From: Rhizophagus irregularis
Taxonomy: Eukaryota
Length of the DNA: 64,000 nt
Direction: 5' to 3'
Assembly (NCBI RefSeq): GCF_026210795.1
Contig: NC_089435.1
Coordinates: 1,550,001 to 1,614,000 of the forward strand
Below, in pieces: positions 5,752-47,140 of this stretch. The notes under the pieces are model-generated. The model saw only the letters and a program-made list of their open reading frames with translations. It did not search any database and was not told the DNA's origin. Numbering within the stretch: position 1 is the first letter of the stretch; each line of letters opens with the position of its first letter. A program made the translations under genes and the position numbers.

Positions 5752-6037
5752 TCTCGTTCTCCCTTCCCTTTCCCTTCCCTTTCGTTCTCCCCTTCCCTTT
5801 CGTATTCCCCTTTCCCTTTCGTTCTCCCTTTCCCTTTCGTATTCCCCTTTCCCTTTCGTTCTCCCTCCTAGCCTCCCTTCCCCTTTCGTTCTTCCATTTC
5901 CCTTTCGTTCTCCCCTTCCCTTTCTCATTCCTTTTCCTTTCGTTTCCCTTTCCCCCTGATCAATGTTGCTGCACCTCAACGTGGTGATCAGGTGGCAACA
6001 AGTTTTTAAAAAGACTTGGCTAAGTCAGCAACAAATA
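5752..6037 (-). repeat. Dispersed repeat copy B with CT-rich (TTCCC/TTTCG) minisatellite
   Basis: Pyrimidine tandem tract 5752-5956 followed by ~72 bp that is the inverted copy of 1754-1827. Confidence 0.85.
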
Positions 6038-8978: not shown

Positions 8979-10130
8979 ATCATAGAAAGTCGAAAGCGTT
9001 CTATATAAACAAGTCTTTATATATTAATTGATATTTATATTTGTTAATAAAAAGAAATTATTTTTTGCGGCAAATTTGGTTGTAACTTGTAAGACATAGT
9101 AATGTCCTTTATTTCGAATAAAAATGATTCATTAATAAATTCTCTTAATATTTATCAAGAAAAATTTTTATAGATACTAACGCGTCATGATAATATAATA
9201 CATTTTTAAATAATTTTATGATTGTTGAATGTAGTTTAATTTCTCTACTAATATCTTATCCATTGCCAATTACAATTATTAATTTAAATTAATAGAGATC
9301 TTGAAATAATTAATAATTGCAAAATATATACAATTTATATTTTGTAAGTTTGTATAATAAAAAGAATACAAAAAGGAAAAAAGAAATTTAATAATTTAAT
9401 ACATGACAAAAAAACATTTGTTTTTTTAAACCTAATCTTAACAAAAAATAAAATGGAATGCAGTGAAATAAAACGAAATGAAATAAATGAAATAAAATAA
9501 ATGAATTAAATAAGTCATTACTTGAGAGTCATGCACTAGAAAATAAAAGAACGATGCCAAAACGTGGCAAGGGTTATTAATAATACAATATGTTGGGAAA
9601 TAAATTAAACTTGAAATAAAAAACTTTTGAATTCTTTTATATTAAAAATTACAATTATAATTGAAATTATTTAAATTATTTGTATAACTGATAAATTCTA
9701 TTGCCTTTTTATTATATAATTTTTATCAAAATAAAGAAAAAATTGCGATTTTACCAACGTCAATTATGTAACTTGCAAATCAATCCGGATACTATTTTTT
9801 CTGGGAGACGCTAGGGTTGTTAAATCGTAATTTAAATCATGTACTAAGATTATGAATGGGAAATGATTTTTCCAAGGGGTTAGGATAATGAAATTTTATG
9901 CAAATCTGCGGCAATCTCCAACAAGAAAAAAAAATTAGAAAGTAGAAACATATATCAATATATTTTCCTTTTTTTGGTAATGAGGCGACTGAGGCGTCAA
10001 ATACTACGCCTAAAGGTTACAAATTTATGTGTGCACAACATGAAGTTTGATCAACAATTTGCATTTTATTAATTTATTACGGTTTGAATGAACGAACTTA
10101 AAATAATTCTTTCTTTTCCCTTAATTTATT

Positions 10131-12448
10131 ATGTCCACTCTTCGATATGAATTAGTTAATGCAACATATCATAGGGCAATTTTTTTGACTGATACTAGTA
10201 TTTACAATGATATACACAAACAATTTGAATTTCAAAAACAAACAGTCCTTGCTGATAAAATTCTTACAAATGATGAAAAAATTTATGGAATAAGAAAATT
10301 AACTAAAACTTATGATCGAAATAAAGTTATTTTAAATTCAGGAACAAGAAGAATTTGTGAAAATTGTAACCAAGAATGTTTAGCCACATTATATTGTGAA
10401 TATTGTGTCCGAAATTATTTAAAAGAAAATTTTTCAAACTGGACATCTGGGAATGATGATATTGACAATTTAATACAGAAATGTCAAATGGAATCACTTA
10501 ATCCACAAAGGATAGTTGAATGGATTCCATATAACAATTTGAAAAATATTAATTATTTAACAAAAGGTGGATTCTCTGAAATCTATACAGCGGGTTGGAT
10601 TAACGGATATTATGAAGAATGGGATTCTGAAAAAAAAACAATTAAAAGAGTTAAAAGACTTGGAATACAAAACTTTGTAGGATATGTAGCACTTAAAAAA
10701 TTAGAAAATGTTGAAAGTGCAAATCAAAGTTGGTTTGAAGAGGTTTGTATAATTTTATTTGAAATTTATTTATAAAATCCTGTTTTTTTGTATTAACAAT
10801 AGCATTGTTGTCATTTAGGCTAAATCACATTTAACTATAAGTAATAAATGGTCAGGTGTTGCTCGATGTTTTGGTTTAACACAAAATCCATCAAATGGAT
10901 ATTATATGCTTGTAATGTGTAAAATGAATATAGATTTAAGAAAATATTTACAACAAAATCATAATCAACTTACATGGAAAGATAGAATGAAAATTATTAA
11001 TGAAATAACTCTTGCGCTTTATTATATTCATAAAGAGAAAGCAATTCATAGAGATTTGCATTCTGGAAATATATTGTATTCACAATTTAATGATAAGTGG
11101 TATATTAGTGATCTTGGATTTTGTGGACCTGCTGATAAATCTTCAACAAGTATATATGGAAATCTTCCTTACATAGCACCCGAAGTTATTGTTGGAAGAG
11201 AATATACTTTTGCATCTGATATTTATAGTATTGCAATTCTTATGTGGGAAATTTCATCTGGACAAACACCATTTATAAATTATGAACATGAAAATGATAT
11301 TGTAATGAATATTATTAACGGTATAAGGGCAAAAATAGTGCCAGGAACTCCATTAGAATATAAAAATTTAATGAAAGAATGTTGGGATGCTGATCCATTA
11401 AAAAGACCTGACGCTGATGCACTTGAATCCAAAATAAACCGAATTAATTTATATTATCAAAATATGTCAGATGAAGTATTCAAATCAGAAATGGATAATT
11501 TAGAAATGAATAAAGTAGAAGAAAATTATACAAGTAGCAGGTTATTTACAAGTAAAATTCACAACTTTGGAAATCTACCTGAACCAAGAAATGCAACAGA
11601 AGGTATAAGCGTATAATATTTATTAATGAATGTATTTATTTTAAAATACATTATTATTAATGTTATCTCTTATTATAATAGAAGAACAAGAAGGTATAAC
11701 CATATAAATAATAATTTCTACTATTTTATTTGGTTACTAAAATAATTCACTTTATTTTGCTACTAATAGCGTTTCATAGTAAATTGTATGATTTTAACAT
11801 TCCTAACAATAGTAAGTATTTATTAATATTACGGCATTAAATTACCATATAATAATGTTTAATTTAATAATTGTCATTTATTTCAGTTAACGATTTTAAT
11901 AAATCAAATAAGCAGAATAGTAGTAACAAATCATCAAAAATAGTTACCATTTTTAGAGGTAATGAATCTTAATTATTGCCAAATCAAGATTGAATTTTAT
12001 AATTTTTATATTAAATCAATATCATAAATTTTAGATAGTAATAAAAAATTATCTAAATTATTTAAAAAGTTGCAAATAAATTCAAATGGTAAGAATAGTA
12101 ATAAATTACTAACAAATTAAACTCATTATTATATCAATTTCATTTATTTATTAAACGCGACTTTTATTTAAATTTAGATGATGAAAAAGAAATAACTCAA
12201 CAACGAATAAAAGGGAAAAATATTAATGTTGATGGTAGGTGAAAATTTTACGTAATAACAAATAATCCTTATACTATTTTAAGTATGTTTATTTTCTTAT
12301 AGATGATGACGAAATATATAATAATCCAAATTTTCATTCAAAAGAACAAGATGAACTGGAAATTCCCGATGGTAAGTTCTTAAATAAATAAGGTTTCTTT
12401 TTAAAGCAACTTAATTAATTTAATTTTTTATCTTTAGATGGATTTTAA
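10131..12448 (+). CDS. Tyrosine-kinase-like protein kinase with N-terminal Cys-rich (CxxC..CxxC) region; multi-exon
   Basis: Exons 10131-10742 and 10819-11602, a 12-nt exon 11682-11693, further short exons, stop TAA 12446-12448. Motifs KGGFSEIY, VALK, HRDLHSGN, DLG, APE. Confidence 0.9.
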
Positions 12449-19051: not shown

Positions 19052-19376
19052 TATATTTATACTTTTAATAAATTATATTTCATAATTGGATAAGTTACAA
19101 AAGAAAAAGATTTATTTAAATTACAAACTAAAGAACTTATAAAATATTTACTATTCTGGCCTTAGTGTTTAAATAATTCTAAATAAAATAAAAAAATAAA
19201 TATACATATTTGGATAAAGGAATTATTCAAATTGCAAACTAAGAAACTTGTAAACATTTAACTGCTCTAGCCTTAGTGTTTAAATAAATCTAAAAAAAAT
19301 GAAACAAAAAACAATTTGCATATCAAATGTAGCTTTAAACAATATAAAATTTTTTACAAAAAGTACAAATAATTAC

Positions 19377-22300
19377 TTAGTTTTCATCTGTTTCAATATC
19401 TAGATAATTAATTAAATAAAATTAATTACAAATAAACAATTTGCAAATTACTTTGTTTTGTGTAATATAATACATACCTAATGAATTAATATCATTACTA
19501 ATTCTACAATTGTCCAAACATTCACTTTCAAGATATTTATTCAATTTTTTACTAGTAAAATCAAGTACACGACTTGTATAACATGCTTGTGGATGAGATT
19601 CTGTAACAAGGTTGTTATTCCCAATTGGTGTATTTATAAATTCCATAACATACCTTTTTAATTCTTTACTAATATCTTCAATTTCCTTTTCATAAGGAAG
19701 AATAATCCACTCTTCAATAATATTTAAAACTTCTTTAGAAGATGGCCTTTTTAATGGATCTTCATCCCAACATTTTTTCATCAAATCTACATAACATTGT
19801 GGAGTATTTTTAATGATTTTAGGACGTCCACCTCTACAAATACTTAAACTAAGTTGAAAATCATGTGCTTCATCATTAAATGGTGGCACTCCAGATGTAA
19901 ATTCCCACATAATCATAGAAAAACTATAAATATCACTAGCTGGAGTAAAATGCTTGCCTCTTAAAATTTCAGGTGCCATAAATGGTATAACACCATAAAT
20001 TTCATATTTTTTCAAAAATGATTTTATAGGTTGACATAATCCTAAATCACTAATATAGACTTTAACATTTTCATAGTTTTCACTTTCTTCATTTTTTTCA
20101 CTTTCCTTATTTTCTTCACTTTCATTTTCCTTATTTTCTCCATTTTCTTCATCTTTATGATTTAAAATGTTGCCATCATGAAAATCACAATGAATAAGCT
20201 TTTGTTTATGTATCTCATTAAGCCCAGAAATAATTCTATGTAACATATGTAATTTTTGCTTCCAATCATTTTTGATTATTTTTGTCAAATTTCCTCTAAA
20301 ATTACCTTTGTTTGCATAATCCATTACTACCATATAACGCAAAGTATCTGGGGATCTTGTAAATCCATAAAAATTAATAATATCATATGAATTTAAACAT
20401 CTTTCATGATTTTTCCACTAGTAAAACATAATAATAATATATTAGTATAAATAAATTATAATTTAGTAAAGTTAAAAAAGAAGAAATAAATAATATATTA
20501 TCATACTTCATTTAAAAATTGGTTTGAATTTTCATTTAAATTATTGTGACATTTGAGAACTACTTCTTTATTTCCATTATTGTTTAACCAAGTAGCTTTG
20601 TATATAATGCTAAATCCTCCTTTATCAAGATATACAATATTTTTAAACTCATTATAAGGAATCCATTTTAAATTTTTTTCAAGAATAAATTTGTCTATAT
20701 TTTCATCTCCACATCTCCTAAATCTATAAATTTAAATAATTAGTAAAATTATATTAAAGTTTATATAGTTTATATTAAAATTTACACTAAAATTTAAAAT
20801 TAGAATTAACACTTACCCTAAAATTTAAATAAGAATTTAATATAATATAAATCTTAGTTTTTGTACTAAAATACATATATAATAAACTATAATTTACAAC
20901 TTACCGACTAAAGTAACAGATATTTTTTTAAAATAAGAATTCAGTTGATTAAAACTATAACTGAAATTTAACATTACTATATAACTTATAACTTACTTGC
21001 TATATTAATAAATAATGTTTTAAATAAAAATTTAGTTTAAAATTATATAAAAATATTATATAAACATGTAATAGTAAAATTAAATAAATAACTTACTCTC
21101 TATATTATTAAATAATTATTTTTAAAAAGGAAATTAAGTTAGTCTGAATTATAAGAAATATCATATAAATATATAAGTAATAAAATAAATAACTTACTCT
21201 CTATATTATTAAATAATTTTTTTCAAACAAAAAATTTTAGTTAGTCTGAAAATATTTTATAATAATCAAATTAAATAAATAACTTACTCTCTATATTATT
21301 AAATAATTTTTTTAAACAAAAAATTTAGTTAGTCTGAAAATATTATATAATAATCAAATTAAATAAATAACTTACTCTCTATATTATTAAATAATTTTTT
21401 TTAAATAAGGAATTTAGTTAGTTTAAATTATAAGAAAATATAATATAAATACGTAATAATAAAATTAAACAAATGACTTACTTCCTGTATTATTAATATT
21501 TTTTTTTTTTTTTTAAACAAGGAATTTATTAGTTTAAATTATATGCCATTATTATATAAATATATAACAATAAAATTAAATAAATAACTCACTCCCTATA
21601 TTATTAAATAATTTTTTGAATGAAAAAGTAAATTAGTTTAGATTGTATGAAAATTTACGTAAATATATATAATAATAGAATTAGTTAAATAACTTATTAC
21701 TTCCTATAACTTACCACCTATATTATTAAATAATTTTAATAAAAAATTTAGTTAGTTAAATTATATGTAATAGTTATGCAGCCTAATTATTTAATAAACT
21801 GCAAGCATAATGATACAGTTATTGAAAGGGGAGTAACACCCTGTAGGGCGTATCTAATAACTGTAACATATTGTATAAATATGTAATAGAACTAAATAAA
21901 TAACTTACAAACTATATTAATAAATAATGTTTTATATAAAGAACGTTAGTTTAAATTATATACAGTAAAATATTTTGTAAATATATAATAATATAAATAA
22001 ATAACTTACGCCCTATATAATTAAATATTTTTTTTTAATTATTTTAATTAGCAATTTACTTAGTATAAATTATATGTAAAATTATATAAAAATAACTTGC
22101 ATGCTATATTATTAAATAAATTTTTAAGTAAGAAAATTATATGTAAATATTATATAAATATGTAAAGTAATAGAATATAATAAATAACTTACAAGCTATA
22201 TTATATTATTAAATATATTTTTGTTTAAATAAAGAATTTAATTAGTTTAAATTATATTTAAATATTTAAATAAATATGCAATAACGAAATTAAATAGTAA

Positions 22301-25300
22301 ATAACTTACTTCCTATATTATCAAATAATTTTTAGGTAAAGAAATTATTTAGTTTAAATCATATGAAATATTATAGAAGTATAATTAAATAAATAACATA
22401 CCCCCTATATCATTAAATAAAGAATGTAAGTATTATGTAAATAGGTAATAATAAAATCGAATAAATAACTTACATGCTATATTATTAAAATAAAGGATTT
22501 AGGTTAATTATATATAAATTATATAAATATTATAAATGTATAATAATAAATTAAATAAATAACTTACTCCCTATATTAATAAGTAATAAAGAATTTAGTT
22601 ATTTTATTTTATATAAATATTATGTAAATATGTAATAATAGAATCAAACAAATAACTTACAAGCTATATTATTAAATATTTTTTTTTTTTAAGAATAAAG
22701 AATTTAGTTAGTTTAAATTATATATATATAAATATGTAATAATAGAACTAAATAAATAACTTACGAACTATGTTATAAATAATTTTTTAAATAAAGAATA
22801 TTTTAGTTTATATCATATATAATAATTGAATGAAATAACAACTTCAATTACCCCCTATATTATTAAGCAGTATTTTTAAATAAAGAATTTAGTTAATTTA
22901 AATTTTATGCAAATATTATATCAATATATAATAATAGAAATAAATAAAAACTTACAAACTATATTGTTAAATAATTTTTAAATAAAGGAATTTAGTTACT
23001 GATTTAAATTATATATAAATATTGTATCATAAAATTAAATCAATAATTTACCTACTATGTAATTAAATAATTTTTACAAAAGAAATTTAGTTAATTTAAA
23101 TTATGTGTAAAATAATATAAATGAAAAACTTATAACTTACATTCTAAAATAAATTGCCAAATAATTTTAAATAAAGAATTTAGTTAATTAAATTATGTAT
23201 ATATTATATAAATATGTAATAATAGAGTTAAATAGATAACTTACCCCCTATACAATTGAATAATATTATTTTAAATAAAGAATATAAATATTATATAAAT
23301 ATGTAATAAACTAATAATAGAATTAAATAAATACTTACAAACTATGATATTGTTAAAAAAATTTAATTAGTTTAAATTATACAGTAAATACTAGTGTATA
23401 AATATGTAATAATAATGATAGAATTAAACAATACTTACAAACTATATTATTAAGGAATTTTTCAAAAAATTTAGTTAGCTTATCATGTTATATATAAATA
23501 TTATATATTAGGATAAAATAACAACTTACAAGCTATATTATTATTTTTAAATAAAGAATTGAATCAGTTTAAATTAAATGTAAAAATTATATAAATAGTA
23601 AATAACTTACCCACTATATCATTAATAATATTTTAAAAGAAGAATATGAGTATTATATAGAGATATAGTAATAGAATCAAATAAATAGCTTACTTACTAT
23701 ATTATTAAATAATTTTTTAAATAAAGAATTTAGTTAGTTTGATTATGTATAAATATTTAATAATATAAATAAATAAATAACTTACAGGCTATATTATTAA
23801 ATAATTTGGTTTAAATAAAAAATATGTTAGTTTCAAACTTTAAATTATGTATAAATATATATATAATATACATATAATATGTTATTACTTACCCACTATA
23901 TTATTGAATAATATTTTAAAGAGTTTAATTAAATTATATAAAAATTGTAAATTTGTAATCACCATAAATATAAATAAATAACTTACAAACTATAATTTTT
24001 TAATAAAATATTTAGTTAGTTTAAATTTATATAAGCATCATACAAATATGCAATAATAAAATTAAATAAATAACTTACTTCCTATATTTTGAATGATTTT
24101 TGAAAAAAAGAATTTTGTTTAAATTATATGTAAATGTTTGGTATTAGGACATTTCACTAAAAGCCATTTTGTCAAAAAATAGTCTCTAGCCTGAGTTTTT
24201 CATAGCATAATATTAATTATTGACCCTATTTTTTGGTGAAACATCCTGGAAATAGCTTTTGACAAAATATCCCATAACCATAAATGTTATATAAATAATA
24301 ATAAATTTAATTATTAACCTACCCACTATATTATTATAAATAATTATAATAATTTTTTAAAGATTTCAGTTTAAATTATATGCAAATATTATGTAAATAC
24401 ATAAATTATAAAATTAAATAAATAACTTACAAACTGTATTATTAAATAATTTTTTCAATTAAAATATTAATTAGTTAAATTATATTTAAATATATATTAA
24501 ATAATTAAATTATAGTAACTTACCAACTAAGAGTTTAAATAAATAATATAATTAATTAAATTATATGCAAATACTATTATATAATAATAGAATTAAATAA
24601 TTTGACTTACCCACTATATTATTATTAAATAGTTTTTTATAGTTAATATAAATTGTATATAAATATATATTAATAGAATCAAATATATAACTTACATGCT
24701 ATATATTAAATAAAAAATAATTGAGTTAATATAAATTATAAAATTATATATAAATAATTAGAATATAATGCAATAATAAAGTTAAATAACTTACATACTG
24801 TATTATTAAATAATTTTTTAAATAAAGAATTTAATTAGTTTCAATTATATATAAATATTATACAAATATAATAATAGAATTAAATAGGCACTTACAAACT
24901 ACATAATTAAAGAATTAATTAGTTTAGATTGTATATAAATATTATATAAATATGTAAATATTAACTTACAAGCTATTATTAAATAATTTTTAAATAAAAT
25001 ATTTAGTATAATTATATGTAAATATTATATAAATAATAGAATTAAATAAATATCTTACAAACTATATTATTAAATAATTGTTTATAAAAATAAAAATTTA
25101 GTTAGTTTAAATTATAAATAAATATATAATAATATAATTGAATAATAACTTACTCCCTATATTATTAACCAATTTTAAATGTAGTTAATTTAAATTATAT
25201 GTAAATATCATGCAAGTTTATAATGACAGAATTAAATAAATTACTTACAAACTATATTTTAACCAATTTTTTAGACAAAGAATTTAGTTAATTTGAACAT

Positions 25301-28300
25301 GATATAAATAAATAATAGAATTAAATAAATGACTTACATGCTATTATAAAATAATTTTTAAATGAAGATTTTAATTAGTTTTAATTATATTTATCATATA
25401 AAAATGTAATAATATAATTAATAAGTAAATGATTTACTTTCTATAATTTTTAAATAAAAAAATTTAATTAGTATTATAAATATGTAATAATAGAATTAAT
25501 AGAATTAAATAAATGACTTACTTTCTATATTATTACATAATTTTAAATAAAGAATTTAATTAGTTTTAAATAATAAATAAATATATAATAACAGGATTAA
25601 ATAAATAACTTGTAAGTTATAACTTACCAGCTAAAATAAATTATAAAATAATTTTTTAAATAAAAATTTGGTTAATTTAAATTATATGTAAATATTATAT
25701 AAACATATAATAATAGAATTAAATAACTTACGAACTATATTATTTTATAAATAAAGAATTTAGTTAATCAAATTATATATAAAATTATTAATAGAATTAA
25801 ATAAATAACTTACAAACTATATTATTATGTAATTTTTTAAATAAGTACTTAGTTAAATTGCATGCAAATAATATAATAATAGAATTAAATAAATAATTTA
25901 TAACTAACCACCTAAAAGATAAAAAACTTAGTTAAGTCAAATTATATATGTGAGTATATAATAATAGAATTAAATAAATAACTTACAAGCTATATTATTA
26001 AATAATTTTTTAAATAAGGAATTAAATTAGTTTAAATTATATAAATATATAATAGGATTGAATAATAACTTACAAGCTATATTATTAAATAAAAAATTTA
26101 TTTAGTATAAGTTATATGTAAATATGATGTAAGTAATGAAATTAAATGACTTACAAGCTATATTAGTAAATAGTTTTTTAAATAAAAAATTCAGTTGATT
26201 CAAATTATATGTAAAAATTATATAATAGTAGAATTAAATAAATAACTTACCCTCTATATTATAAATAAGTTTAAATAAAAAATTTAGTTAACTTAAATAT
26301 GTGAATATAATTATAGTACTAGTAAATATTAAAATATTAACTTACTTTCTATATTATTAGTTAATTTCCAATAAAGAATTTAATTAGTTTAAATTATACA
26401 TAAATATTATATAAATATATAATGATAAATAATTAACTCACTCCCTATATTGTTAAGTAGTAAAAAATTTAGTTAGTTTAAAATATATGCAAATATTATA
26501 CAAATATGTAATACCAGAATTAAACCAATAACTTACAATCTATATTATTTAATTTTTAAACAATGATTCAATTAGTTTAAATCATATGTAAATATGTAAT
26601 AGTAATAGAATTAAATAATAACTTACAAACTATTATATTATTAAATAATTTTTTAATTAAGAATTTAATTAGTTTAGATTGAATTTGTAATATATGTAAT
26701 AATAGAATTAAAAAAAAATAATTTACCTCCTATATTATTAAATAATTTTTTAAATAAAAAATTTAGTTAGTTTGAATGAGTAATAGTACAAATATATAAA
26801 ATAACTTACTCCCTATATTATTGAAAAATTTAGTTAATTTGAATTATATAAATATTATATAATAATATTATTATATAAATTAATAATAGAACCAAATAAC
26901 TTACTTTCTATATTATTGAATAAAAAATTTAATTAATTTATATTATATATACTTATATTATGAAAACAATAAATAACTTATAACTTACTGACTAAAAGAA
27001 ATTACCAAATAATTTTTTTAATAAAGAGAATTTAGTTAGTTTAAATAATAACATATAAGTATTATATAAATATGTAATAATAGAATTATTCAAACAACTT
27101 ACCCCCTATATTATTAAATAATTTTAAAATAAAGTTAATAAATATTATATAATAAATATGTAATAGTAAAATTAAATAAATAACTTACGAGCTATCATAT
27201 TATCAAACAATTTTTTGAATTTAATTAGTTTAAATTAAATATAAATATGTAATAATAGGATTAAATAAATAACTTACAATCTATATTATTATTATTAAAT
27301 AATTTTTAAGTAAATAATTTAATTATATTAATATTATATGTAAAAATGTAATAATAATATTAAATAACTTACAATCTATATTATTAGTAATTGTTTAAGT
27401 AAAGAATTTAGTTAATTTAAATTCGATGTAAATATTATGTAATATATAATATTATGATAAATAAATAACTTATAACTTACCAGCTAAAAAATTTCAAATA
27501 AAGAATACTCAATTTAGTTAATGTACATGTAAGTATTATATAAATATATAATAATAGACTTAAATCGATAACTTACAATCTATATTATTAAACGAATTTA
27601 ATTAGTTTAAATTATATATAAATAATATTGACTATGTAATATTAGAATTAAATAAAATGTTAACTTACGAGCTATATTATTAAATAATTTTTAATTTTTA
27701 AGCAAAGAATTTAGTTAATGTAATTATATGTGAACATAATAAAAGTATATAATAAAAGAATTAAATAAAGCAATTTCCATTTATACACGGGATGTTCAAG
27801 CAAAAAGGGGACGTCTAAAGCGGAGCAGTTTTGGCCGGCATTACGGCATTAAGGAATTTACTATGATCACGTGATTCTACTCCGCTTTAGACGCCCCCAA
27901 AAAAAGTACGTAAATTTTTATGCCGATCACTTAATGTTGGCTGAAAAAAATAAAAAATTTTTTGTTAAATAAGTCTAAAAATGATATATTTTCAGAGATA
28001 CACTTACCGTCCATTTTTTTAAAGTTATATTTATTTTTGTTATACTGACACGTGATATGTGCTTGAAGTACCCGTGTATATTAAAATTTTCTTAAATAAA
28101 TATCTTACGAACTATATTATTAAATGATTTTTAAAATAAAAACTTAGTTAGTTTAAATTATATGTGAATATTATAATGTATAATAAATAAATGACTTACT
28201 TTCTATGTTATTAATAAATGATTTTTAAGCAAACAATTTAGTTAGTTTAAATACATGCAAATATTATATAATTATATAACAATTAAATAAATTACCCCCT

Positions 28301-29216
28301 ATATTATTATAATTATTTTAAATAAAAATTTCAGTTAACTTAAATTTATAAGTATTATATAAATATGTAATGGAAAATAACTTACTCTCTGCATTGTTAA
28401 GGAATTTTTTAAATAAAGAATTTAATTAGTCTAAATTATATATAAATATTATATAAATATGTAATAATAGATTAAATAAATAATTTACCGCCTATATTAA
28501 TAGATAATTTTAAATAATAAATTTAATTAGTTTAGATTATATAAAATATCATGAAATAAATTAGCTCATACTTACGAACTAAAATAAATCATCAATAATT
28601 TATTAAGAAAAGTATTTTAGTTAGTTAATTTATATTACCGTATATGCAAATGCATGTAATAATAGAATTTAATAAATAACTTAGAACTTACCGACTAAAA
28701 AAAATTGCCAAATAATTTTTTAAAATAAAGAATTTATTTTTGTTTAAATTACTGTACATAAGTAAGATAACATACGACTTACACCCTGTAATATTATTAA
28801 TTGTTAATTAGTTAAATATAAATATAATACAGATATATACTATAAATAAATAATATATATCTTACAATCTAATAATTTAAATAAAGAATTTATAATCAGC
28901 GTTAGTCGAGTTTTGTAAATTATCAAACAATAAATATAATATTATTAAGTAATGTAACTTGCCATCTGGAATATAATTAATTATTAAGTAGTTATTTAAA
29001 CAAAGAACTTCAGTTAGTTATTTGAAAATAATGTGAAATAAAGTACTAAAAGTTTAACTTACTAACTATAGTATTGTCGATCATTAAATGAATTATTTAG
29101 TTATATAGAATATGAAAAAATAAGTAATTTCATTATTATTCAATTTTAAGATAATCTATTGACTTACGAGCCAAATATTTAATGTGCCTTTTATCTTTAT
29201 CATCACTGTCAGCCAT
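19377..29216 (-). CDS. Predicted membrane-anchored tyrosine-kinase-like kinase (490 aa, 86 exons) with microexon-encoded N-terminus
   Basis: Exon 1 29216-29168 (MADSDDKDKRHIKYLA+C); 81 3-nt exons (29065 down to 20905); 1-nt exon 20817; exons 20723-20507, 20417-19478, 19399-19377. Total 1473 nt = 491 codons with no internal stop. Kinase motifs DKGGFSIIY, VVLK, HCDFHDGN, DLG, APE. The kinase part is high confidence; the microexon chain is my manual reading. Confidence 0.85.
24139..24280. mobile_element. Small MITE inside an intron of the microexon array
   Basis: Imperfect TIR TGGTATTAGGACATTT / AAATATCCCATAACCA; 8-bp TSD TAAATGTT (24131-24138, 24281-24288). Confidence 0.7.
27786..28076. mobile_element. 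Tc1/mariner-type MITE in an array intron, with a nested GGGCGTCTAAAG-TIR mini-element (about 27807-27898)
   Basis: TIR CACGGGATGTTCAAGCA / TGCTTGAAGTACCCGTG flanked by TA. Inner inverted repeat CGTCTAAAGCGGAG / CTCCGCTTTAGACG. Confidence 0.8.
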
Positions 29217-31820: not shown

Positions 31821-31963
31821 TTTTTTGATTTTACAGTATGTAACGTTCATTAGGTTATACGACTAACTTGATAAGTCAAGGGCTATGATGTTATGACTTC
31901 CGATTTTTTTCCTTTTGTTTTCTTTCTTTTTTTTTTGTTTCAAGATCTTAATAAGGTTCAAGC

Positions 31964-34089
31964 ATGACTGATATTCGTAAAGCTAATGCTGCAATTAAAA
32001 GAGCATATACCTTAATAGATTTTAGTATTTACAATGATGTACATAAACAATATGAATTTAAAAGACAAGCAATTCTTGTTGATGATTCACTTATAGAAAA
32101 TGAAAAATCTGAAGCAATAAGAATTTTGACTGCAAATTATGATGAAAGCAAAATTATTTATAATGAAGGAATAAAAAGAATTTGTAAAAATTGTAACAAA
32201 GAATGTTTGGCCACATTATATTGTGAATATTGCGTTCGAAATTATTTAATAGCAAATTTTTCAAATTGGACATCTGGAAATGATAATATTGATAATTTAA
32301 TACAAGATAGTCAGATGAAAGCAATAAGCCCAAATCTAATACCAGAATGGATCCCATACAATAATCTTCAAAATATTGAATATCTAACAAAAGGTGGATG
32401 CTCTGAAATTTATATAGCAGAATGGGTTAATGGAAGTTATGATGAATGGGATTTTAAAGAACAACGATTAAAAAGATATGGTGAACATTTAGTAGTACTT
32501 AAAAGACTAGAAAATATCGAAAATGCAAATCAAAGTTGGTTTGAAGAGGTTTGTAATATAGAAATATTTTAAAAAGTAATAACTGAACTTTGTGCCTAAA
32601 ATTTTAATATAATTTTTGTAGGCTAAATCACATTTAACTATAAGCAATAGATGTCCAGAAATTGTACAATGCTATGGATTAACACAAGATCCATCAAATG
32701 GAAGTTATATGCTTGTAATGAATAAGACAGATACAGATTTAAGAAAATATTTACAACAAAATCATAATCAACTTGCATGGAAGGAAAGAATTCAAATTGT
32801 TGCTGATATAATTCTAGCACTTTTACGAGTTCATAATGAGAATGCAATTCATAGAGATTTGCACTCCGGGAATATATTATTCATGGTATTTGATAGTAGA
32901 TCTTTTATTAGTGATCTTGGATTTTGTGGACCTGCAAATAAACCGTTAAAAAGTATATATGGAAATCTTCCTTATATAGCGCCTGAGGTTATTATTGGAA
33001 AAGAACAGACTTTTAAATCTGATATTTATAGTATTGCAATGCTTATGTGGGAAATTTCATCTGGACGACCACCATTTATTAATTATGAACATAATTACGA
33101 TCTTGCTATGAATATTGTTAATGGTATAAGACCAAAAATTATACCAGGAACTCCTTTAGAATATAAAGATTTAATGATACAATGTTGGGATGCTGATCCA
33201 TCAAAAAGGCCTGATATTATAACACTTCGCAGTAAAATAAGAGAAATCAATTATTTTTATCAGAGTAAATCAAACCAGTCAGAAGAAAATAATGTAAGTA
33301 GCCTGGAAAATTATACAAGTACAAGCAAGCTTTATCAATTTGGAACTTTTCCTGAACCAAGAAATGCAACAGAAGGTAATATCCCAGTTTTTACATTTTG
33401 GTCAATTATTTGAAGAGTATTGTTATTAATAATATTATTTTAATTAAAATAATAGAAGAACTAGAAGGTAATAAATTATTTTAAATTTTCTTAATTTAAA
33501 TGATTGTGATAATTAATTATTTTTTGAACTCTTAGCATTTTACAGTAAACCTTTTAACTCCTATATTCCTGATAACAGTAAGTATTTTAGATTAATATTA
33601 AATCTATTAACTTATTTAATTTGATACTGTTAGTTGATGATTTTGATAAATTAAATAATGATCAGAATAGAACATCAAGGATGAATAGTATATTTAAAGC
33701 TAATTTGTTCAATATAAATTTTATTAACTTTAAGAAGTAGTCAAATCAATAAGTAATAATGTTTATTAAATTATTTAGTAAATAGTAATAGATTATTCAA
33801 AATATTTAAAAAGAATTTTCAAGATGGTATATTATAGAGAAGAAATAATGCAACAACAAAGAAAGAATATTTATATTAATAGATTATTTAATGTCATTTT
33901 AATGATTGTTTTTATTCATTAATTCTAATTTATTATAATGTAGATGAGGATGAAGTATACAATAATCCTAACCTTCATTCAGAAGATCAAGATAAATTGG
34001 AAATCTCTGATAGTAAGGGAATTTATTTTATACTAATGTTGAAACTTTAAATAGCTATTAACCTTATTTTTTTAATGTATTTAGATTAA
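31964..34089 (+). CDS. Tyrosine-kinase-like protein kinase, paralog of 10131-12448
   Basis: Same domain layout and intron positions (WFEE|AKSHL; PRNATE|EE.E). Motifs HRDLHSGN, DLG, APE. The 3' small exons are less certain because some donors are degenerate. Confidence 0.85.
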
Positions 34090-35657: not shown

Positions 35658-38600
35658 ATGTCATGGTTTGAGGTACTAAGAAAGACTAATGAAAAATATA
35701 TTAGTATTCAACGTACTGATAGAACGTGGCTTGTACGAGATGATACGAAATCACTTCAGATATTATCTTGTCACCACCACACTATATCCAAAAAAAATAA
35801 TGCATATCAACTTTGCGCCATCACATCAATGAAACCTGATCCTGGGCAAAAAAAATGTTGGATCCCCCTTGTTCCTGGCTATTGCATTATGTCTAAAGTT
35901 GGATTGCATTTTATGCGACTTTCCATTACCGAAAATAACAATAATTTACAATTTGAATGGATTGATTATGGTAATGATAGTACATTTATGGGAAATCCAG
36001 TTGCTAGTGGAGTAGATAGTGAATTTTTTCAATCTTTACGGAAATATGCTGAAACGCAAAGTGTTATTAAAGGCAAAATATCAATTCCAAATGTTCTTGG
36101 ATTAAACATTTATGAAAATGCAATATATCTTCGTAGTATAATTTCTCATTTACATGATGGAATCTTTTTATCATTAAAAGAAGCCTATAAAGCTAGTACC
36201 AAAATGAATAAATTTGTAAAATCCTTGAATAAACGTGCTCTTGAATTGGATGAAGAATTTTCTAATGGTAATGATCGTCCTAATAAAAAAGTCAAAAGTG
36301 GGTTGATCTTTTCGCCTTTTGGACACAAACTTACGCCTCAACAAAGTCAAGTACTTGTATTTAATTTTCACTCTATTCAAAGCAAATTTTATCAGGCTAA
36401 TAAACGTTTGAAGCGGGCACAGAGTAACATTGAAAAATTGAAAACATTGCCACCCCCATCTTGTAAACAAAAAGAAATTGAAGCACAAAAAAAATTGATT
36501 GATGAAAAAATTAAGCAATTAAAGGATGAGGAAAACCTTGGCAGTAGCATTATTTGCAGTACTGATTCATTTCTCTCTTTGATTTTGACACAGCAATGCT
36601 CTTGTGGAAACAATGATATTTTACAGAAAAAATGCAAAATATCTTCGGGTGGATTATCAGTTAAAGTAGTAATTAAATGTAAAAAATGCAAAGAAACTTT
36701 ATCTTTTCAAAATGAACCTCAAGATATGAATTATACAAAAGCATTTGCTGCTGCTACATTATGTGGTGGATTGAATCGTCAAGAATTTCAAAATTCAATG
36801 TTAACTCTTGGTATTACCAAATTACCTAGTAAGGCCATTTATCATAGATATCAAAAATCAATAAGCGAAGATATTGAAAATATTGCTTTAGAAAATGCTA
36901 AAAAAGCATTATATGCGTCAATTGAGGATGCTAAAAAAAATGGAAAAAATGCTTTAACAATTGGATTCGATGCATCATGGTCACATGTACGCAATGCAGC
37001 ACAAGCTAGTGGTGAATTCATATATCATGGAATTCCTGAAGGAAGATATTATTTTACTTTATTTAATTACATTTATTTAATAATTTAATTGACATTCTTA
37101 TTATATCCTACTAATAGGATATACTCGCAAACCAGTTGTTGGATTTTTTGTTGTAGAAAAAAGTCATGTTAAAAAAGATAAAAATGGAAACAAAACAATA
37201 ATGCATCAAGGAAACCATGAAGCTAGTTCTAAACAAATGGAACATGCAGTGCTTATTGGAATATTGGAGAAAGTGGTTCCTGTTTTAGAAGAAACTGGTA
37301 TGCTTTTAGATATTGTAGTAGATGGAGATTTTGATAGTAATAAAACTTTGCATGGAGTAAAATGTGTAAATCAAATATTTTCCGATCTTAAGCATTTAAC
37401 ATGCAATATCCGAAAAAAATTAAATGGTAATTATAATTAATTTATTATGCATATATTTCAAAAATAATTAATTTTACTTTTTTATAATAGCTAAAAAATG
37501 GGAGCACTATTCTCGTTATGAAGACGTAATATTACAATATTATAAAAAATGTATATTTGCTGTAGCTGCCCGAAAAGCATCTAATAATGAAGATTAACCA
37601 CCTACGACTGAATTGGTAAAACATTTGCAAATACATGGATTAACCAAACATTTATGTGATGATCATTCGGAATGTTGGCCAGAGGTATGTTGGATGACAC
37701 AAAATCCCGAATTAGTCCTTTCTGAACCAAATCTCTTGAATTGTACATCTGAAGAATGAGAAAAATTTTCTGCAATGCTTGGAGAAATTTTTCAATTAAA
37801 TATTGGACAAAGTCTTATAACAGATGCTAGGACATCTCAAAATGAAGCATTCAATAGACAAAAATTAAGTTTTGTTTCAAAATTAATCGATTATTGGAAA
37901 ACATATTCTGTACGATATACATGCTGCCCAAATTATTTTGGGATGCCATAATTATAATTTGGGATGCCATAATTCATTCGGTTTATATATAATTTACTAT
38001 GTAAAGTGCCAAAATAATTTGGGATGCCATAATTGAATTTGGGATTTTACTTATAATTACGGCAGTCCAAAATAATTTGGGTGGCATGTATACTGTACGA
38101 TATGCTTTAGCAGTTATTCATAATAATTCAGGCCTATTATTAATGTTACAAAATATACGTGCACAAAAGGGACTAACTGTATTTTCTGAAATTGATATAC
38201 TAAATATTGAGCATATTTCTGGTGGGCGTGAATCACAAAGGCAAAGAAATCAACAAGATCTACAAATAAAAAGTGCGGCTAAAGTAGCAAAAATTGCACA
38301 ACAGAAAAAAAATTTGGATACGTTTGACTTTGATCAGGTACGTATATAATTGAATTGACATTATTTCTAGTAGATTTAGAAGTTTAATAATAATATTTTT
38401 TTTAGAGTTTAGTTCCATATGGACAAAAAACACGTATTGCATTAGAATCTAAAACATTTTGTTCTTCTTTTACGGGTCTAATTTGTGAGTTACTTGACAT
38501 TTCAAACAAATGTATCAGTTGTCAATCTTTTCCTAAAGAGTTCCCTAATGGCTATTGCAAGATATGTAATTTTTGGAATTATTTGGGATTTACTCAAAGA

Positions 38601-40579
38601 ATACCCGAAATTAATGTTCAAATGGCAAATAATGAGCCAAATCAGCTATTAATTTCTAATAAAATTCCTGAATTGAATCAAATACTAAAACAAGTGTTTG
38701 GATTTTCAAGTTTTCGTGAAGGACAATATGAAGCTATATGCTCATTCTTAGGAGATAAAGATACTTTAGTTATATTGCGAACTGGAGGTGGTAAAACTTT
38801 ATGTTTTGCAATGGCTGTGCTTGCTTCTTCTCGTTTAACTGTTGTTTTTACTCCCTTAAAAGCATTAATTGACGATCATGTGGTAATATACATTTGATTT
38901 ATAACTTTTATTTTTGGTATTTACCAATATCTTCTATTCACAGAATAATCTTGTTCATATGGGAATTCCTGCTGCAGGACTTTATACATCTACAGGACAA
39001 TCTTTTGAATATTAGGAGCGCGTTTTTTCTGAACTATCTTTAGGAATTTTACCTATTTTATTTATAACACCAGAGAAATTGGAAAAAAATAGATCATTTT
39101 ATCGGCTACTTCAAAAAATATATAGAACACAAGGGATTCAATTCGTCATTGACGAAGCTCATTGTATACTTGATTATAATAATTTTAGGTAAGTCTGTAA
39201 GTTTTTTAGAAAATACTTATTGTTAGACAAAAAAAAAAAATAATATAATTTGAATATTAGGGATTCTTGGACACATTTAGGGAATCTTAAAAGAAATTTT
39301 CCAATGTCTCCAATCATGTTATTGACTGCTACGTGCACATCATCTGACGTTGAAGATATGTGACAAAATTTGAATATTTTGCCAGATAATTTTACTATAA
39401 TTCGTGGTTTATCATTAGCACGGCAAGAAATTGAAATTCAAATAGTAGCAAAATCTTCACGACAAAACTTATATTCTAGGATTCAAAATAATTTAGTTGG
39501 ATTAACTGGAAGATGCATTATTTATTGTTCAGGACCAAATTCTTGCCAAGAAATATTTAACAATTTGCATGGAAATCTTACATTTTCTCTTGGCTTGTAC
39601 CATGGTGAATTGGATGGAGAGCAACGTAAAATAGCAATCAAAAATTGGCAAATGGGTAAGATTCAAATTATGATAGCAACAAATAGTTTTGGTATGGGGA
39701 TCAATGCACCAGACGTATATCTAATAATTCATACAACTATACCTTTATCAATGAGTATGTATGCTTTTAATGCTTTTTGTATAATACATATATATTTATT
39801 TTATTTCTTTAATTTAGCAAATTTTATACAAGAAATCGGAAGAGCAGGGCGTGATGGAACGCCTTCAAAAAGTATTATATTTTATTCAAGAAATGATATA
39901 CGGACTTTGTTTTTAATAATTACACGAAAAGAAGAAAGGTATAAATATTATTTTCTATATATGTATGTAATTAATTTTATAAAATCTGACAATGTATTAG
40001 TTTACCACAAGAAAATGATGTAGAAAAAAGAGTAAGGCATTACGAAGGCCAGCAAAAATTTTTACAAATAGCACATTTTTGCGAAACAAAATATATTTGT
40101 CGACATTCATTGATTGCACAACATCTTTCGTGGTCAGATAATATTTCAAATAAAACATGCGGAGTATGTGATAATTGTATATCAAGTTTAGGTGATAAGC
40201 CTGTATGGAATGATTTTTCAGCTGATGTAATTAGGTTGTTAAAAATTGCAAAAGAAATTTTGATCTCTGGAAAAATACATGAAATGATATCGTTAGATAT
40301 TGCAGCAGTTTTTTGTAAATTAAAAAGAGCAAATGAATTGGGACTTTCAGAATTACCAGTTTATAATGAGCCTTTTGAACGTAAATTGAAAATAAAGATA
40401 ATACATTATTTGTCATAGACGAACTTTGCGCTAAAGGCTTTTTGGTTTTGAACTTTCAACTTCGAAAAACAGCAGCCTTAACTGGAAACTTTTCCTTCAA
40501 GTCAGTAATTATTGGACTAGGAGATAATGCCGAGGAAGAAGCAAAACACATTACATGGAAATATTGTTTTAAACAATAA
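35658..40579 (+). pseudogene. DDE transposase followed by RecQ helicase; intron-containing, disrupted
   Basis: Transposase motifs: Cys clusters, IGFDASWSH, VVDGDFDS, DLKH, SQNEAFN. RecQ motifs: FGFSSFREGQ, TGGGKT, TPLKAL, ITPEKL, IDEAHC, LLTAT, ATNSFGMGIN, QEIGRAGRDG, CGVCDNC. Several in-frame stops and a MITE insertion. Confidence 0.85.
37920..38088. mobile_element. Tc1/mariner-type MITE inserted in the Kolobok transposase
   Basis: TIR CATGCTGCCCAAATTATTTTGG / CCAAAATAATTTGGGTGGCATG with TA flanks. Confidence 0.8.
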
Positions 40580-43702: not shown

Positions 43703-45042
43703 ATTGTAATTGCTTATTTTTTCGTCAGTTTTTATTACCTTGTTGGCATATCTTTCACAAACATGTATATGGTGTTTTGGAACAATTTCTGGACACAGTA
43801 TCTGGGCATTTACTGGACAATTATTTAGACAAATTTTCCAGACAATTTTTGGACAATTTCTGGACACTTATTTTTATAGGGTGTAACACCTTGTAACTCC
43901 TTGCTTTTTCAAAGATTATTAAAAAATTTTTTATTATAATAATTTATCCATGAGCAAATACTTATTATTGTCAAAACTGTTAGATGCTCTTGCAGAATTT
44001 ATTTTGAAGAAAATAATGAAAAGAATTCAGAGTTTAAGGTAATTAATTTTAATAGGAAAATTAGAAAATTCATTAACAACCTAATATAGTGATCATGAGA
44101 AAAAATCCATCTTCAATAGGCAAATTTTGCTATATAACTCTAGGAATTTAAGAATCACATAATAATCTTGATCTATTTATCAATAATTCACTATCAGCCT
44201 ATTAGTTACAAAATTGAAAGGCTAAACTTGTTTAAATGTTTTGACATTTATTATTAAAAGCTTGTACTTAAACAGTGTTAAAACTTACATAGTTTTATGA
44301 ATTTATACTATACTAGTTTTAATATTGCTTTATATTTCTTTTGCAATAAAATTATAACTGTTAATTTATTTTTCTATTCCAGATCTTTATAATTAAAAAC
44401 TAAAACTAAATGTATTTTTTCAATAGATTAGTAATCATATAACTAAATTTTTGACTTTGATTGGTCAAATAGTTATGTCAAAATTTAGATGTTTAGACAA
44501 CTGTCAAAATTTTTAGGCTTTAGGTGGTTTTAATTTAGATTTTTAATACTACTAGCCAAATATAGCTTTACCAAGTAACTATATATTAACCTATTTGTTT
44601 ACAATAAATATAGTTTATCAATTTTAACTAAAATGGAAATAGAAATAAAGCTGTTTTAAAGGATGGCATCGATGATGCAAATTCAATAAATGAATTTTAT
44701 GCTTATATTTTAAGAATCCATAGTCTATGCAATATAATTAACATACTATAATAAAGGACGGTCAGATAAAAAATTGTGTTACCTTAAAAATGTATTTTTT
44801 CATATTGTTTACCGAATTGCTGGGTCATTTTGTGTAATAATGATTTCCTTTTTCAAAGAAAAATCTTTTTTTATGGCGATTTGTATCACTTAAACGACCA
44901 GCCATTTTTATATTATTATATATTATATATTATATATATTAAGCTACAGATTCTTCCTGCTACAGCGTAAAAACATATAAGTAAAAAATATAGGAAAGAG
45001 AAATTCAAAAAATACATTGTATTTTACACTTTATCTACCATT

Positions 45043-47115
45043 ATGTCTACCTCACAGTCAACGGGTATGACACGTATGACTCGTAGTGTGACTCGTAAAG
45101 GAACGCTACAGCCAGGAGAACAAGTTATTGATATTTCTACAGGGTCAACTTCAACTGCCTTTCAGGATATTGACCCCTTTAAAAAGCCATATAATCCCCC
45201 ACCGGCTACTAATAAAGATGATGAAGGGTTTGAAACAGTTCAATCAAAAAATAAAAAAGCAAAAAAAGAGGATACTGTGACACAAAAACAAAAAGAAGTC
45301 ATGAAGGAGGTCGTCCAAGCAACATTGGGAAGAAAACAGTCTCAACAGAGCGAAACTGCGGCTGCAAATGAGTCACGTGACAATAATCATCCCATTCAGC
45401 CGAATTTAACCAAAAATATCACCCCAATGGATCTTGACCAAAACAATGACGATCATAATGCAGGAGATGAAACCAATGAAATTCCTGATGATGAAGATGA
45501 TATTATTGATATAGCAATTATGGCTGAAAAGCCACAATTTAAAGTTTATTTTGATTTGGCACAAATTCCTGGAAAAAGCCATATTGGAAAAGTAAACCTC
45601 GTGAAAAAACTGCTTGCTCAACATCATATTGCATGTTTTCCAGGTAGAATTGATGCCAAGAATATTGAAATAGATGGAACTATCCAAAAACAGCATTATT
45701 ATGTTTTTAAATGTGCTAATGAAACAGCATTTGAGAAAATTTTACGTGAACCCATTCCAACTAAAATTAAAATTAAACAACAAGATGGTAAAATTGTGGA
45801 ACAAGATTTGAATGTTACGTTTAACAAAATAGAAAAAAAAGAAATTCCGGCTGAAACTCAACAGAATATTGATGAACACATGATTTTTGTAAACAAGATT
45901 CCTGCAGAATTGAGGAATTATCAGATTAAAGGTGTTTTTGGTACATATGGAAATATAGTAAACTTCAAAACTTTTATGAGAGGGCAGTATCAAAATGCTA
46001 TTATCACATTTGATGACAAATCCGCAGTCCAACCATTTTACTATACTTGGGGCATCTTTATTAACCAACATTTGGTTAGGGTTAGACCCAAAGTTATGTC
46101 AGAAGATAAACTACATGAAAGAACAGCATATTACATTAAACTTGCAGGTTTACCACTAAATACATCAGCATTTGATTTAAGAGGATTTATGGAACGGTAT
46201 AATGTTAAATATCTTGACATTCCAAGAAATTCTCGCTTTAATTATCCATTACGCTATTGTTTTGTTTATTTTCAGAACGAAGAAGATTTTCAAATCGCAA
46301 CCAAACAAGCATTCTGTTTTAAAGAACACCAATTATATTGGACTGATGTAGATATGAAAACTTGCCACAGGTGTGGCAGTCCTGAACATCTTGCTATGCA
46401 CTGTGATCATGAAGACAATCGTCCAAGATACAAAAACAGAAAAGAAGTACTTAAAGGTTTTAGACAAGCTAGACAAGAAAGAAATAAAAAATATGGAAGC
46501 TATGCACAAGCAGCTCAACAAGGACGTAATAGAAGACAAAGTTTTAATTCACGAAGACCTTGGAATAGAGCGAATTTATCACATGATAATAAATCACATG
46601 ACCAAAATAATGTATTTTCTATTGACAAACCAAAACACCAGAGGCAAATGTCGATGACTAAGAATACAATTCAGGATCGTAATGTAGCCTTTACCATTAC
46701 TAAAGCAATGGAAAAATTAGACCAACTTTGTAAGAATTTTACAGTTTTACAAAATGAACAACGTTCAATTAGTAATGAACTTAAAAGTATTAAAGTTAAA
46801 CAAAATACCAAAGATACAACTAAACCAAATACAACAGTTAATAAAGCAGTGGGATCTAGTACTAAAGGAGTTACCAGAAATAATAACAAACGCATTCTCT
46901 TAGAAGAATCTTCAGATGATTCAACTCATGAATTATCAGACCTTGAAGAACGCTTTAAACAATCTGAACAAAAATCTCAAAATATGGCTACTGAACTTAC
47001 AGATCTCAAAGGTACTATGCAAAAATTATTACAATTATTCCAATCATCAAATGATAATCATAATGTTGAGGGGGACAACACTTATGATGAAGAAATTATT
47101 GATATTAGTCAATAA
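45043..47115 (+). CDS. LINE ORF1 (RRM-like domains, CCHC zinc knuckle, coiled coil)
   Basis: 690 aa. IFVNKIP..FGTYGNI and IKLAGLP..YCFVYF are RRM-like; CHRCGSPEHLAMHC is a CCHC knuckle. Confidence 0.9.
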   Translation: MSTSQSTGMTRMTRSVTRKGTLQPGEQVIDISTGSTSTAFQDIDPFKKPYNPPPATNKDDEGFETVQSKNKKAKKEDTVTQKQKEVMKEVVQATLGRKQSQQSETAAANESRDNNHPIQPNLTKNITPMDLDQNNDDHNAGDETNEIPDDEDDIIDIAIMAEKPQFKVYFDLAQIPGKSHIGKVNLVKKLLAQHHIACFPGRIDAKNIEIDGTIQKQHYYVFKCANETAFEKILREPIPTKIKIKQQDGKIVEQDLNVTFNKIEKKEIPAETQQNIDEHMIFVNKIPAELRNYQIKGVFGTYGNIVNFKTFMRGQYQNAIITFDDKSAVQPFYYTWGIFINQHLVRVRPKVMSEDKLHERTAYYIKLAGLPLNTSAFDLRGFMERYNVKYLDIPRNSRFNYPLRYCFVYFQNEEDFQIATKQAFCFKEHQLYWTDVDMKTCHRCGSPEHLAMHCDHEDNRPRYKNRKEVLKGFRQARQERNKKYGSYAQAAQQGRNRRQSFNSRRPWNRANLSHDNKSHDQNNVFSIDKPKHQRQMSMTKNTIQDRNVAFTITKAMEKLDQLCKNFTVLQNEQRSISNELKSIKVKQNTKDTTKPNTTVNKAVGSSTKGVTRNNNKRILLEESSDDSTHELSDLEERFKQSEQKSQNMATELTDLKGTMQKLLQLFQSSNDNHNVEGDNTYDEEIIDISQ

Positions 47116-47140
47116 TTTCATATATTTTTCATTTTAATTT

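What the first reader, a model, noticed from the sequence alone, without database searches (positions are those of the whole stretch)
20905..29065. Symmetric 3-nt exons allow combinatorial, frame-preserving diversification
Seen: all 81 exons are phase 1-1, so skipping one deletes a residue and recodes the junction codon without a frameshift. By my count only 4 single skips (exons 25, 48, 58, 67) create a stop. Established analogy: Schistosoma micro-exon genes generate variants from symmetric short exons. Inference: this may be a system for producing variable sensor/anchor regions on a kinase (non-self recognition or symbiosis signalling), either by splicing or by DNA-level gain and loss of units.
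Basis: inference. Interest (0 to 1): 0.72.

Follow-up and report, generated by a model that had tools for sequence, protein, structure and literature searches.

The report
Kinase anchor spelled by one-codon exons
A kinase gene of a root-symbiotic fungus carries 81 three-base units and one single-base unit between intron-like repeats; they likely act as exons and are predicted to spell a membrane anchor one amino acid at a time, but no evidence was found that they are routinely skipped to make variants.

Summary
Joined in genomic order they give a stop-free reading (1 of 20,000 shuffles). It encodes residues 17-98 of a 490-aa Rhizophagus irregularis non-RD kinase, including a predicted membrane segment flanked by basic clusters. 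The public model lacks this part. Selection is visible on the complete ordered product, not on tolerance of skipping. Related kinases in metagenome contigs carry the same arrays. Their last unit is 3 nt or 1/4 nt according to the next exon's phase (21 of 21; 8 of 9). One recent unit duplication and dead-looking units in relatives show frame-neutral DNA gain and loss. RNA reads were inconclusive, so splicing and skipping are untested. The closest precedent is the alternatively spliced codon-sized exons of Tuber nank NLR genes. This scan noted shorter one-codon arrays in other genomes.

The parts
29168..29216 (-). Predicted first coding exon (49 nt, 16 codons + 1 nt, phase-1 end)
   Evidence: its peptide matches the start of annotated paralog P0060 better than any of 300 shuffles (score 39, shuffled maximum 37), with P0076 second at 35
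20905..29065 (-). Array of 81 three-base phase 1-1 units (predicted exons) with ~92-nt AT-rich introns; encodes residues 17-98
21593..25340 (-). Units 37-74: predicted membrane segment, residues 53-90 (hydrophobic helix ~53-74, one Glu, then a Trp-rich stretch)
   Evidence: maximum 19-residue hydropathy 2.49, P about 3e-4 against stop-free shuffles; 38 residues with one charge, P=0.007, statistic chosen after seeing the sequence
21097..21484 (-). Units 75-79: basic cluster (Arg plus four Lys) after the membrane segment, with four consecutive AGA units
21198..21378 (-). Recent tandem duplication of an intron+triplet unit (introns 76/77 and 77/78, 96.6% identical against about 70% background)
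20817..20817 (-). Single-base unit (G), predicted 1-nt exon converting phase 1 to phase 2
   Evidence: same position held by 1-nt or 4-nt units in 8 of 9 related loci
20507..20723 (-). Kinase N-lobe exon (glycine-rich loop at residue 132, catalytic Lys motif at 152)
19478..20417 (-). Main kinase exon: HCD catalytic loop (non-RD), DLG, APE, acidic insert
   Evidence: Pfam PF07714 E=7e-30
19377..19399 (-). Last coding exon and stop
   Evidence: matches the end of P0001
27782..28080 (.). MITE-like insertion with 21-nt terminal inverted repeats in the intron before unit 12 (437-nt intron)
24082..24322 (.). Enlarged intron before unit 49 (241 nt) with a GC-richer insert and a 12-nt inverted repeat
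21718..21908 (.). Enlarged intron before unit 73 (191 nt) with a hairpin-like insert

Best explanation
The 81 three-base units and the single-base unit lie between intron-like repeats and are likely true exons that, all included in genomic order, are predicted to encode an N-terminal membrane anchor of a non-RD kinase. Shown: the units, their phase, the stop-free ordered reading, the hydrophobic segment, the frame-fixing last unit, and the same layout in related kinases. Inferred: each ~92-nt intron is recognised on its own and removed one after another; the selected product is the full 490-aa membrane-attached kinase; the array grew by tandem duplication of an intron+triplet cassette and changes slowly by one-residue gains, losses and triplet substitutions, all frame-neutral. 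Some skipping is likely as a by-product of 83 small introns, but the sequence shows no tuning for it. The diversity that matters is most likely between paralogs and alleles of this large kinase family rather than between isoforms of one gene.
For: Stop-free in 1 of 20,000 triplet permutations (mean 6.5 stops); 0 of 80 adjacent junctions are stops. AG and G invariant in 81 of 81 while triplet positions carry 0.03-0.24 bits. Triplets are 37% GC against 9.9% in intron cores. CTRAY branch-like motif in 42 of 83 introns against 14.6 in shuffles. Hydrophobic segment P about 3e-4. Phase rule in relatives: acceptor 38-41 nt before the SGN anchor goes with a 3-nt last unit in 21 of 21 loci; acceptor 4-10 nt before goes with a 1- or 4-nt last unit in 8 of 9. 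Three insertions sit in introns. Skip stops are not depleted. Intron identity is flat at about 70% at all distances, with one recent duplication.
Against: No spliced read through any unit was seen. In one search most reads were paralogs (47 of 1550 and 50 of 1763 at 99% or more), only 15 of 273 joints and 24 of 1026 loose ends were shown, and only units 64-81 were covered. No database protein with this N-terminus appeared among the 120 listed of 1236 hits. In relatives the stop-free test is not significant alone (0 of 36 junctions, P=0.18), one locus (L002) has a stop just after the conserved acceptor, and the two phase classes are each a group of kin, so the counts are not independent. In Tuber the analogous exons are reported to be extensively alternatively spliced. 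A membrane segment is shown for this gene only, because related contigs reach at most 9 units.
Confidence: 0.58

Rival explanations
1. Regulated or stochastic skipping is the purpose of the layout: one gene yields many kinases that differ by single residues in the sensor or anchor, as reported for Tuber nank genes.
For: 77 of 81 single skips keep the frame open and all 81 give 71 distinct products. 17 of 81 donors depart from GTAAGT. At 99% inclusion per exon only 44% of transcripts would be full length (arithmetic). Skipping all 81 units still reads in frame and would give a soluble kinase. Precedent in Tuber. The kinase is non-RD, like plant pattern-recognition kinases.
Against: No depletion of stops for single or longer skips; random skipping at 5% per exon puts a stop in 19% of products. 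The order encodes a coherent membrane segment that many skips would shorten. HCD is the rule in this subfamily (107 of 120 homologs) and also occurs in three relatives whose kinase exon is preceded by Cys-rich coding sequence, so it does not single out array genes.
Confidence: 0.27
2. The repeated introns act as recombination substrates that swap or convert single codons rapidly between units, alleles and paralogs, making a DNA-level diversity generator.
For: One recent duplication. Intron units are more alike within a subfamily than between subfamilies (window against own-type loci 0.69, against other-type 0.63, other-type among themselves 0.75). Thousands of contigs in two runs fit the laid part of the locus, many at two places (not a copy number). 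Dead-donor units sit beside open main kinase exons in L041, L050, L057 and L078.
Against: Units within the array are only about 70% alike against a shuffled baseline of 63%, with no neighbour effect beyond one pair, so homogenisation is not recent. Listed contig pieces over units 71-74 and 80-81 in two other runs differ from the window by 0-1 letters, though these may be the same strain.
Confidence: 0.1
3. The units are not coding exons: the region is a satellite-like repeat or a long intron with recursive splice signals, and the kinase starts near its N-lobe as in the public model.
For: The public model P0001 starts inside the last array intron. No transcript support was seen. Many annotated paralogs also begin at or near the N-lobe exon.
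Against: The stop-free order, GC-rich variable triplets, hydrophobic segment, homology of exon 1 to paralog starts and the phase-matched last unit are not expected of non-coding repeats.
Confidence: 0.05

Closest known systems
Codon-sized microexons of Tuber melanosporum nank (NACHT-ankyrin) genes, Iotti et al. 2012 (not held; seen only through passages of PMC4986451 and PMC13449251)
   Same: [quoted passage not shown]
   Different: Here the gene is a TKL-type kinase of a Glomeromycotina fungus, not an NLR of an ascomycete. The array has 81 units plus a 1-nt unit and encodes a predicted membrane anchor. Alternative splicing is reported for Tuber and is untested here.
Schistosoma mansoni micro-exon genes (passages of bioRxiv 10.1101/2023.06.21.545858)
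   Same: Runs of very short exons, mostly multiples of three.
   Different: MEGs have 10-20 exons of mostly about 15 bp, introns of 0.1-5 kb and signal peptides, and encode secreted proteins with verified isoforms. This gene has uniform 3-nt units, ~92-nt repeated introns, no hydrophobic N-terminus and a kinase domain.
Rhizophagus irregularis expanded kinase family (2,533 kinases, passage of PMC10234402); public model P0001 (OCT59_027144)
   Same: The kinase part is identical to P0001 apart from 27 residues that P0001 lacks.
   Different: P0001 replaces exon 1 and units 1-80 by a reading through the last array intron, so it has no membrane segment.
Plant non-RD receptor kinases XA21, FLS2, EFR (passages of PMC3411088)
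   Same: Cys in place of Arg before the catalytic Asp; predicted membrane segment upstream of the kinase.
   Different: No signal peptide and no LRR domain here; only about 52 residues precede the membrane segment; topology is unresolved; relatedness was not tested.
Isolated 1-3 nt exons in Coprinopsis cinerea (passages of PMC12230235) and the 1-nt exon of Arabidopsis (PMC4674806, search listing only)
   Same: Show that fungal and plant spliceosomes can use 1-3 nt exons (13 one-base exons in 13 Coprinopsis genes).
   Different: Those are one or two per gene, not a tandem array.

Membership tests
Codon-sized microexon arrays (Tuber nank type) | Run of 3-nt exons with splice signals | tested here: met
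   81 units, (sequence level)
Codon-sized microexon arrays (Tuber nank type) | NACHT-ankyrin NLR host gene | tested here: not met
   Pfam finds only kinase domains in the window's main exon and in P0001
Codon-sized microexon arrays (Tuber nank type) | Extensive alternative splicing of the exons | tested here: inconclusive
   one search showed no junction into the array
Schistosoma MEG | Symmetric short exons | tested here: met
   all phase 1-1
Schistosoma MEG | N-terminal signal peptide, secreted product | tested here: not met
   hydropathy is negative over 19-residue windows starting at residues 1-40; hydropathy scan only, no dedicated predictor
Schistosoma MEG | Long introns (0.1-5 kb), 10-20 exons | tested here: not met
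   median intron 92 nt, 81 units
Glomeromycotina TKL-type protein kinase | PF07714/PF00069 domain with Lys, HxD, DxG and APE motifs | tested here: met
Glomeromycotina TKL-type protein kinase | Catalytic activity | not testable with these tools
   motifs present; no assay
Receptor-like kinase (single pass) | Transmembrane helix upstream of the kinase | tested here: met
   hydropathy 2.49 over 19 residues, (prediction from a joined model)
Receptor-like kinase (single pass) | Extracellular ligand-binding domain | tested here: inconclusive
   52-residue charged N-terminus, basic clusters on both sides of the membrane segment; a hairpin anchor with both ends in the cytosol fits as well
Non-RD kinase | No Arg before the catalytic Asp | tested here: met
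   HCD at residue 246; HCD in 28 of 28 curated array loci

The most novel reading that the evidence does not exclude
A large part of the expanded kinase family of arbuscular mycorrhizal fungi are hidden membrane-bound non-RD receptor kinases. Their sensing ends are written one codon per exon and diversified at single-residue resolution by skipping and unit exchange, forming a fungal counterpart of a variable immune or partner-recognition receptor repertoire.
Probability: 0.2. Interest if true: 0.92.

Novelty: new variant of a known kind. Interest (0 to 1): 0.74.

Why it matters
If the model holds, an 86-exon gene builds 82 consecutive residues from 1-3 nt exons, a direct test case for how the spliceosome handles splice sites 1-3 nt apart. 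The public model of this gene lacks the region, and many annotated paralogs begin at the same exon boundary, so membrane-anchored kinases may be widely mis-annotated as soluble in the model mycorrhizal fungus. That would supply candidate membrane signalling proteins for symbiosis or non-self recognition. A single amplicon long-read experiment separates constitutive use from combinatorial diversification.

Tried and rejected
No whole genome was held, so arrays could not be counted genome-wide. Run search: no RNA holder listed. Read laying covered 19300-22700 only (units 64-81 and the kinase) and showed no junction into the array; units 1-63 are unchecked against reads. Protein searches for transcript-derived full-length relatives found none among the listed hits (in one search I read the N-termini of 27 of the 150 listed). 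The paralog alignment found no relative in viral contigs and only two weak prokaryotic matches, not used. Higher-order periodicity among introns: none at lags 1-40. Longest fully uncharged run was not significant (22 residues, P=0.105). The Fisher P for the phase rule (1.5e-6) is not relied on because loci are kin. Dropped rows: 6 of 87 relaxed matches failed the donor filter; L030 and L033 were dropped as near-duplicates in the junction count but are included in the 21 of 21; L064 and L071 were false unit calls; 38 of 80 loci had no anchor, of which L007 and L008 were counted; my hand-set acceptor for L002 was wrong and one search gives the right one. Literature: no paper describing such arrays in Rhizophagus or mycorrhizal kinases surfaced; the library lacks most subscription papers and I read no supplements.

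Full report
Observation. The minus strand from 29065 to 20905 holds 81 units of the form YAG-NNN-G(T/C) with donors within one mismatch of GTAAGT, separated by AT-rich spacers of median 92 nt. 64 strict matches stand against 0.03 expected in shuffles, and no other run of units lies in the window. AG and the donor G are invariant, the flanks carry about 1-2 bits next to the unit, and the three central positions carry 0.03-0.24 bits. The triplets are 37% GC against 9.9% in the spacers. A CTRAY branch-like motif lies in the last 60 nt of 42 of 83 spacers against 14.6 in shuffles.

Gene model. A 49-nt exon (29216-29168), the 81 triplets, a single base at 20817 and three ordinary exons (20723-20507, 20417-19478, 19399-19377) give one open frame of 490 residues. 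The single-base unit is not in the finding; without it the frame closes within about ten codons. The kinase part (PF07714) is identical to Rhizophagus irregularis protein P0001 except for 27 residues that P0001 lacks. P0001's first 26 residues are a read-through of the last array intron, so the public model does not use the array. The exon-1 peptide resembles the start of annotated paralog P0060 more than any of 300 shuffles did, which supports the start site.

What selection acts on. Only 1 of 20,000 permutations of the triplets is stop-free. Among stop-free shuffles, the observed 19-residue hydropathy peak of 2.49 has P about 3e-4. Residues 53-90 hold one charged residue (P=0.007, post hoc), and basic clusters lie on both sides. 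The complete, ordered product therefore looks constrained and predicts a membrane anchor. Whether it is a single pass with a short outer domain or a hairpin with both ends in the cytosol is open. Skipping shows no such signal: 4 of 79 internal single skips make a stop against 5.3 in stop-free shuffles (P=0.32), and 276 of 3160 longer forward skips (8.7%) against 7.6% for all pairs.

Relatives. An alignment of 14 named paralogs fetched 80 metagenome loci; none is this gene. Their organisms were not determined; kinase similarity and AT-richness suggest related mycorrhizal fungi (inference). Of 42 loci with an anchor, 32 had at least 200 nt upstream and 27 of these had a unit within 320 nt; two of the 27 are false calls. 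Chains reach 9 units before contigs end. The last unit fits the phase of the next exon. Where the acceptor lies 38-41 nt before the anchor, the last intact unit is 3 nt in 21 of 21 loci. Where it lies 4-10 nt before, as in the window, the last unit is 1 or 4 nt in 8 of 9; the exception, L050, has a 1-nt unit with a non-GT donor. The two groups are kin, so this is consistency rather than 30 independent trials. Junction codons in relatives gave 0 stops in 36, not significant alone (P=0.18). All 28 curated array loci have HCD in the catalytic loop, as do 107 of 120 database homologs. The two other kinases in the window have HRD and no array.

Change at DNA level. Introns are about 70% alike at every distance (shuffled baseline 63%), so the array is old and not recently homogenised. 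One pair is 96.6% alike and lies in the AGA run, a recent duplication that would add one Lys. Three introns carry insertions, one with 21-nt terminal inverted repeats. Four related loci show units with dead-looking donors beside open main kinase exons; for the three with 3-nt units the loss would be frame-neutral, but pseudogenes or assembly errors are not excluded.

RNA. Two poly(A) runs and two contig sets were laid on 19300-22700. Most reads were paralogs at 90-95%; 47 of 1550 and 50 of 1763 were 99% or more alike. None of the 15 joints (of 273) or 24 loose ends (of 1026) shown links the kinase to the array. Listed contig pieces over units 71-74 and 80-81 match the window with 0-1 differences, which argues against a local assembly artefact. 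Splicing is therefore inferred, not shown, and units 1-63 are unchecked against reads.

Mechanism. Most likely (0.58): each short intron is defined on its own and removed in turn, the full-inclusion message is the selected product, and the array evolves by slow one-residue steps. Some skipping is probable by arithmetic (44% full length at 99% per exon). Adaptive combinatorial skipping (0.27) and rapid DNA shuffling (0.10) remain open and are not exclusive of the first. A non-coding reading is unlikely (0.05).

Comparison. Passages of PMC4986451 and PMC13449251 report alternative splicing of tens of codon-sized exons in Tuber melanosporum nank NLR genes (Iotti et al. 2012, not held); the lead came from earlier notes of this scan. 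Schistosoma MEGs differ in exon size, intron size and signal peptide (passages). 1-3 nt exons are documented singly in Coprinopsis (passages). Non-RD kinases are linked to pattern recognition in plants (passages), an analogy only. The Rhizophagus genome paper counts 2,533 kinases (passages) and was not among the three papers holding both 'microexon' and 'Rhizophagus'. Searches surfaced no description of these arrays; subscription papers and supplements were not seen.

Verdict. Observation confirmed and extended; interpretation partly supported; new variant of a known kind; interest 0.74.

Noticed in passing
window 29306-29279 and 29218 (minus strand): A possible extra upstream exon and 60-nt intron would add 10 in-frame residues before the chosen start; not a signal peptide.
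   Followed up: partly
window 23054-23052 (unit 60): The triplet is itself TAG, so use of the second AG would give a zero-length exon, a built-in skip.
   Followed up: no
P0048, P0060, P0004, P0061, P0117, P0116: Annotated paralogs carry Gly/Ile/Leu/Met-rich pieces before the kinase that resemble an out-of-phase reading of array triplets; they may be predictor-stitched microexons or real membrane segments.
   Followed up: partly
window 20064-20155: A 90-nt acidic insert in the kinase; paralog reads and contigs lack it (joint), and P0002 has a longer version.
   Followed up: partly
L017, L035, L036, L058, L071, L072, L079: Related kinases with a Cys-rich coding segment directly before the kinase instead of an array; possibly the ancestral front end.
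   Followed up: no
window 44971-52603 (+) and 55022-56764 (+): Two-ORF non-LTR-retrotransposon-like element (endonuclease, reverse transcriptase and RNase H motifs recognised from recall) and a truncated near-identical copy of its 3' part.
   Followed up: no
window 10125-11616 (+) and 31955-33413 (+): Two HRD-type kinases of another subfamily with ordinary exon structure.
   Followed up: no
window 57732-58375 and 5760-5954: Pyrimidine-rich tandem repeats of 20-nt and 6-nt period.
   Followed up: no
window 38406-40418 (+) and 59843-60943 (+): RecQ-like helicase pieces and a Tc1/IS630-like transposase in pieces (names recalled from motifs, not searched).
   Followed up: no
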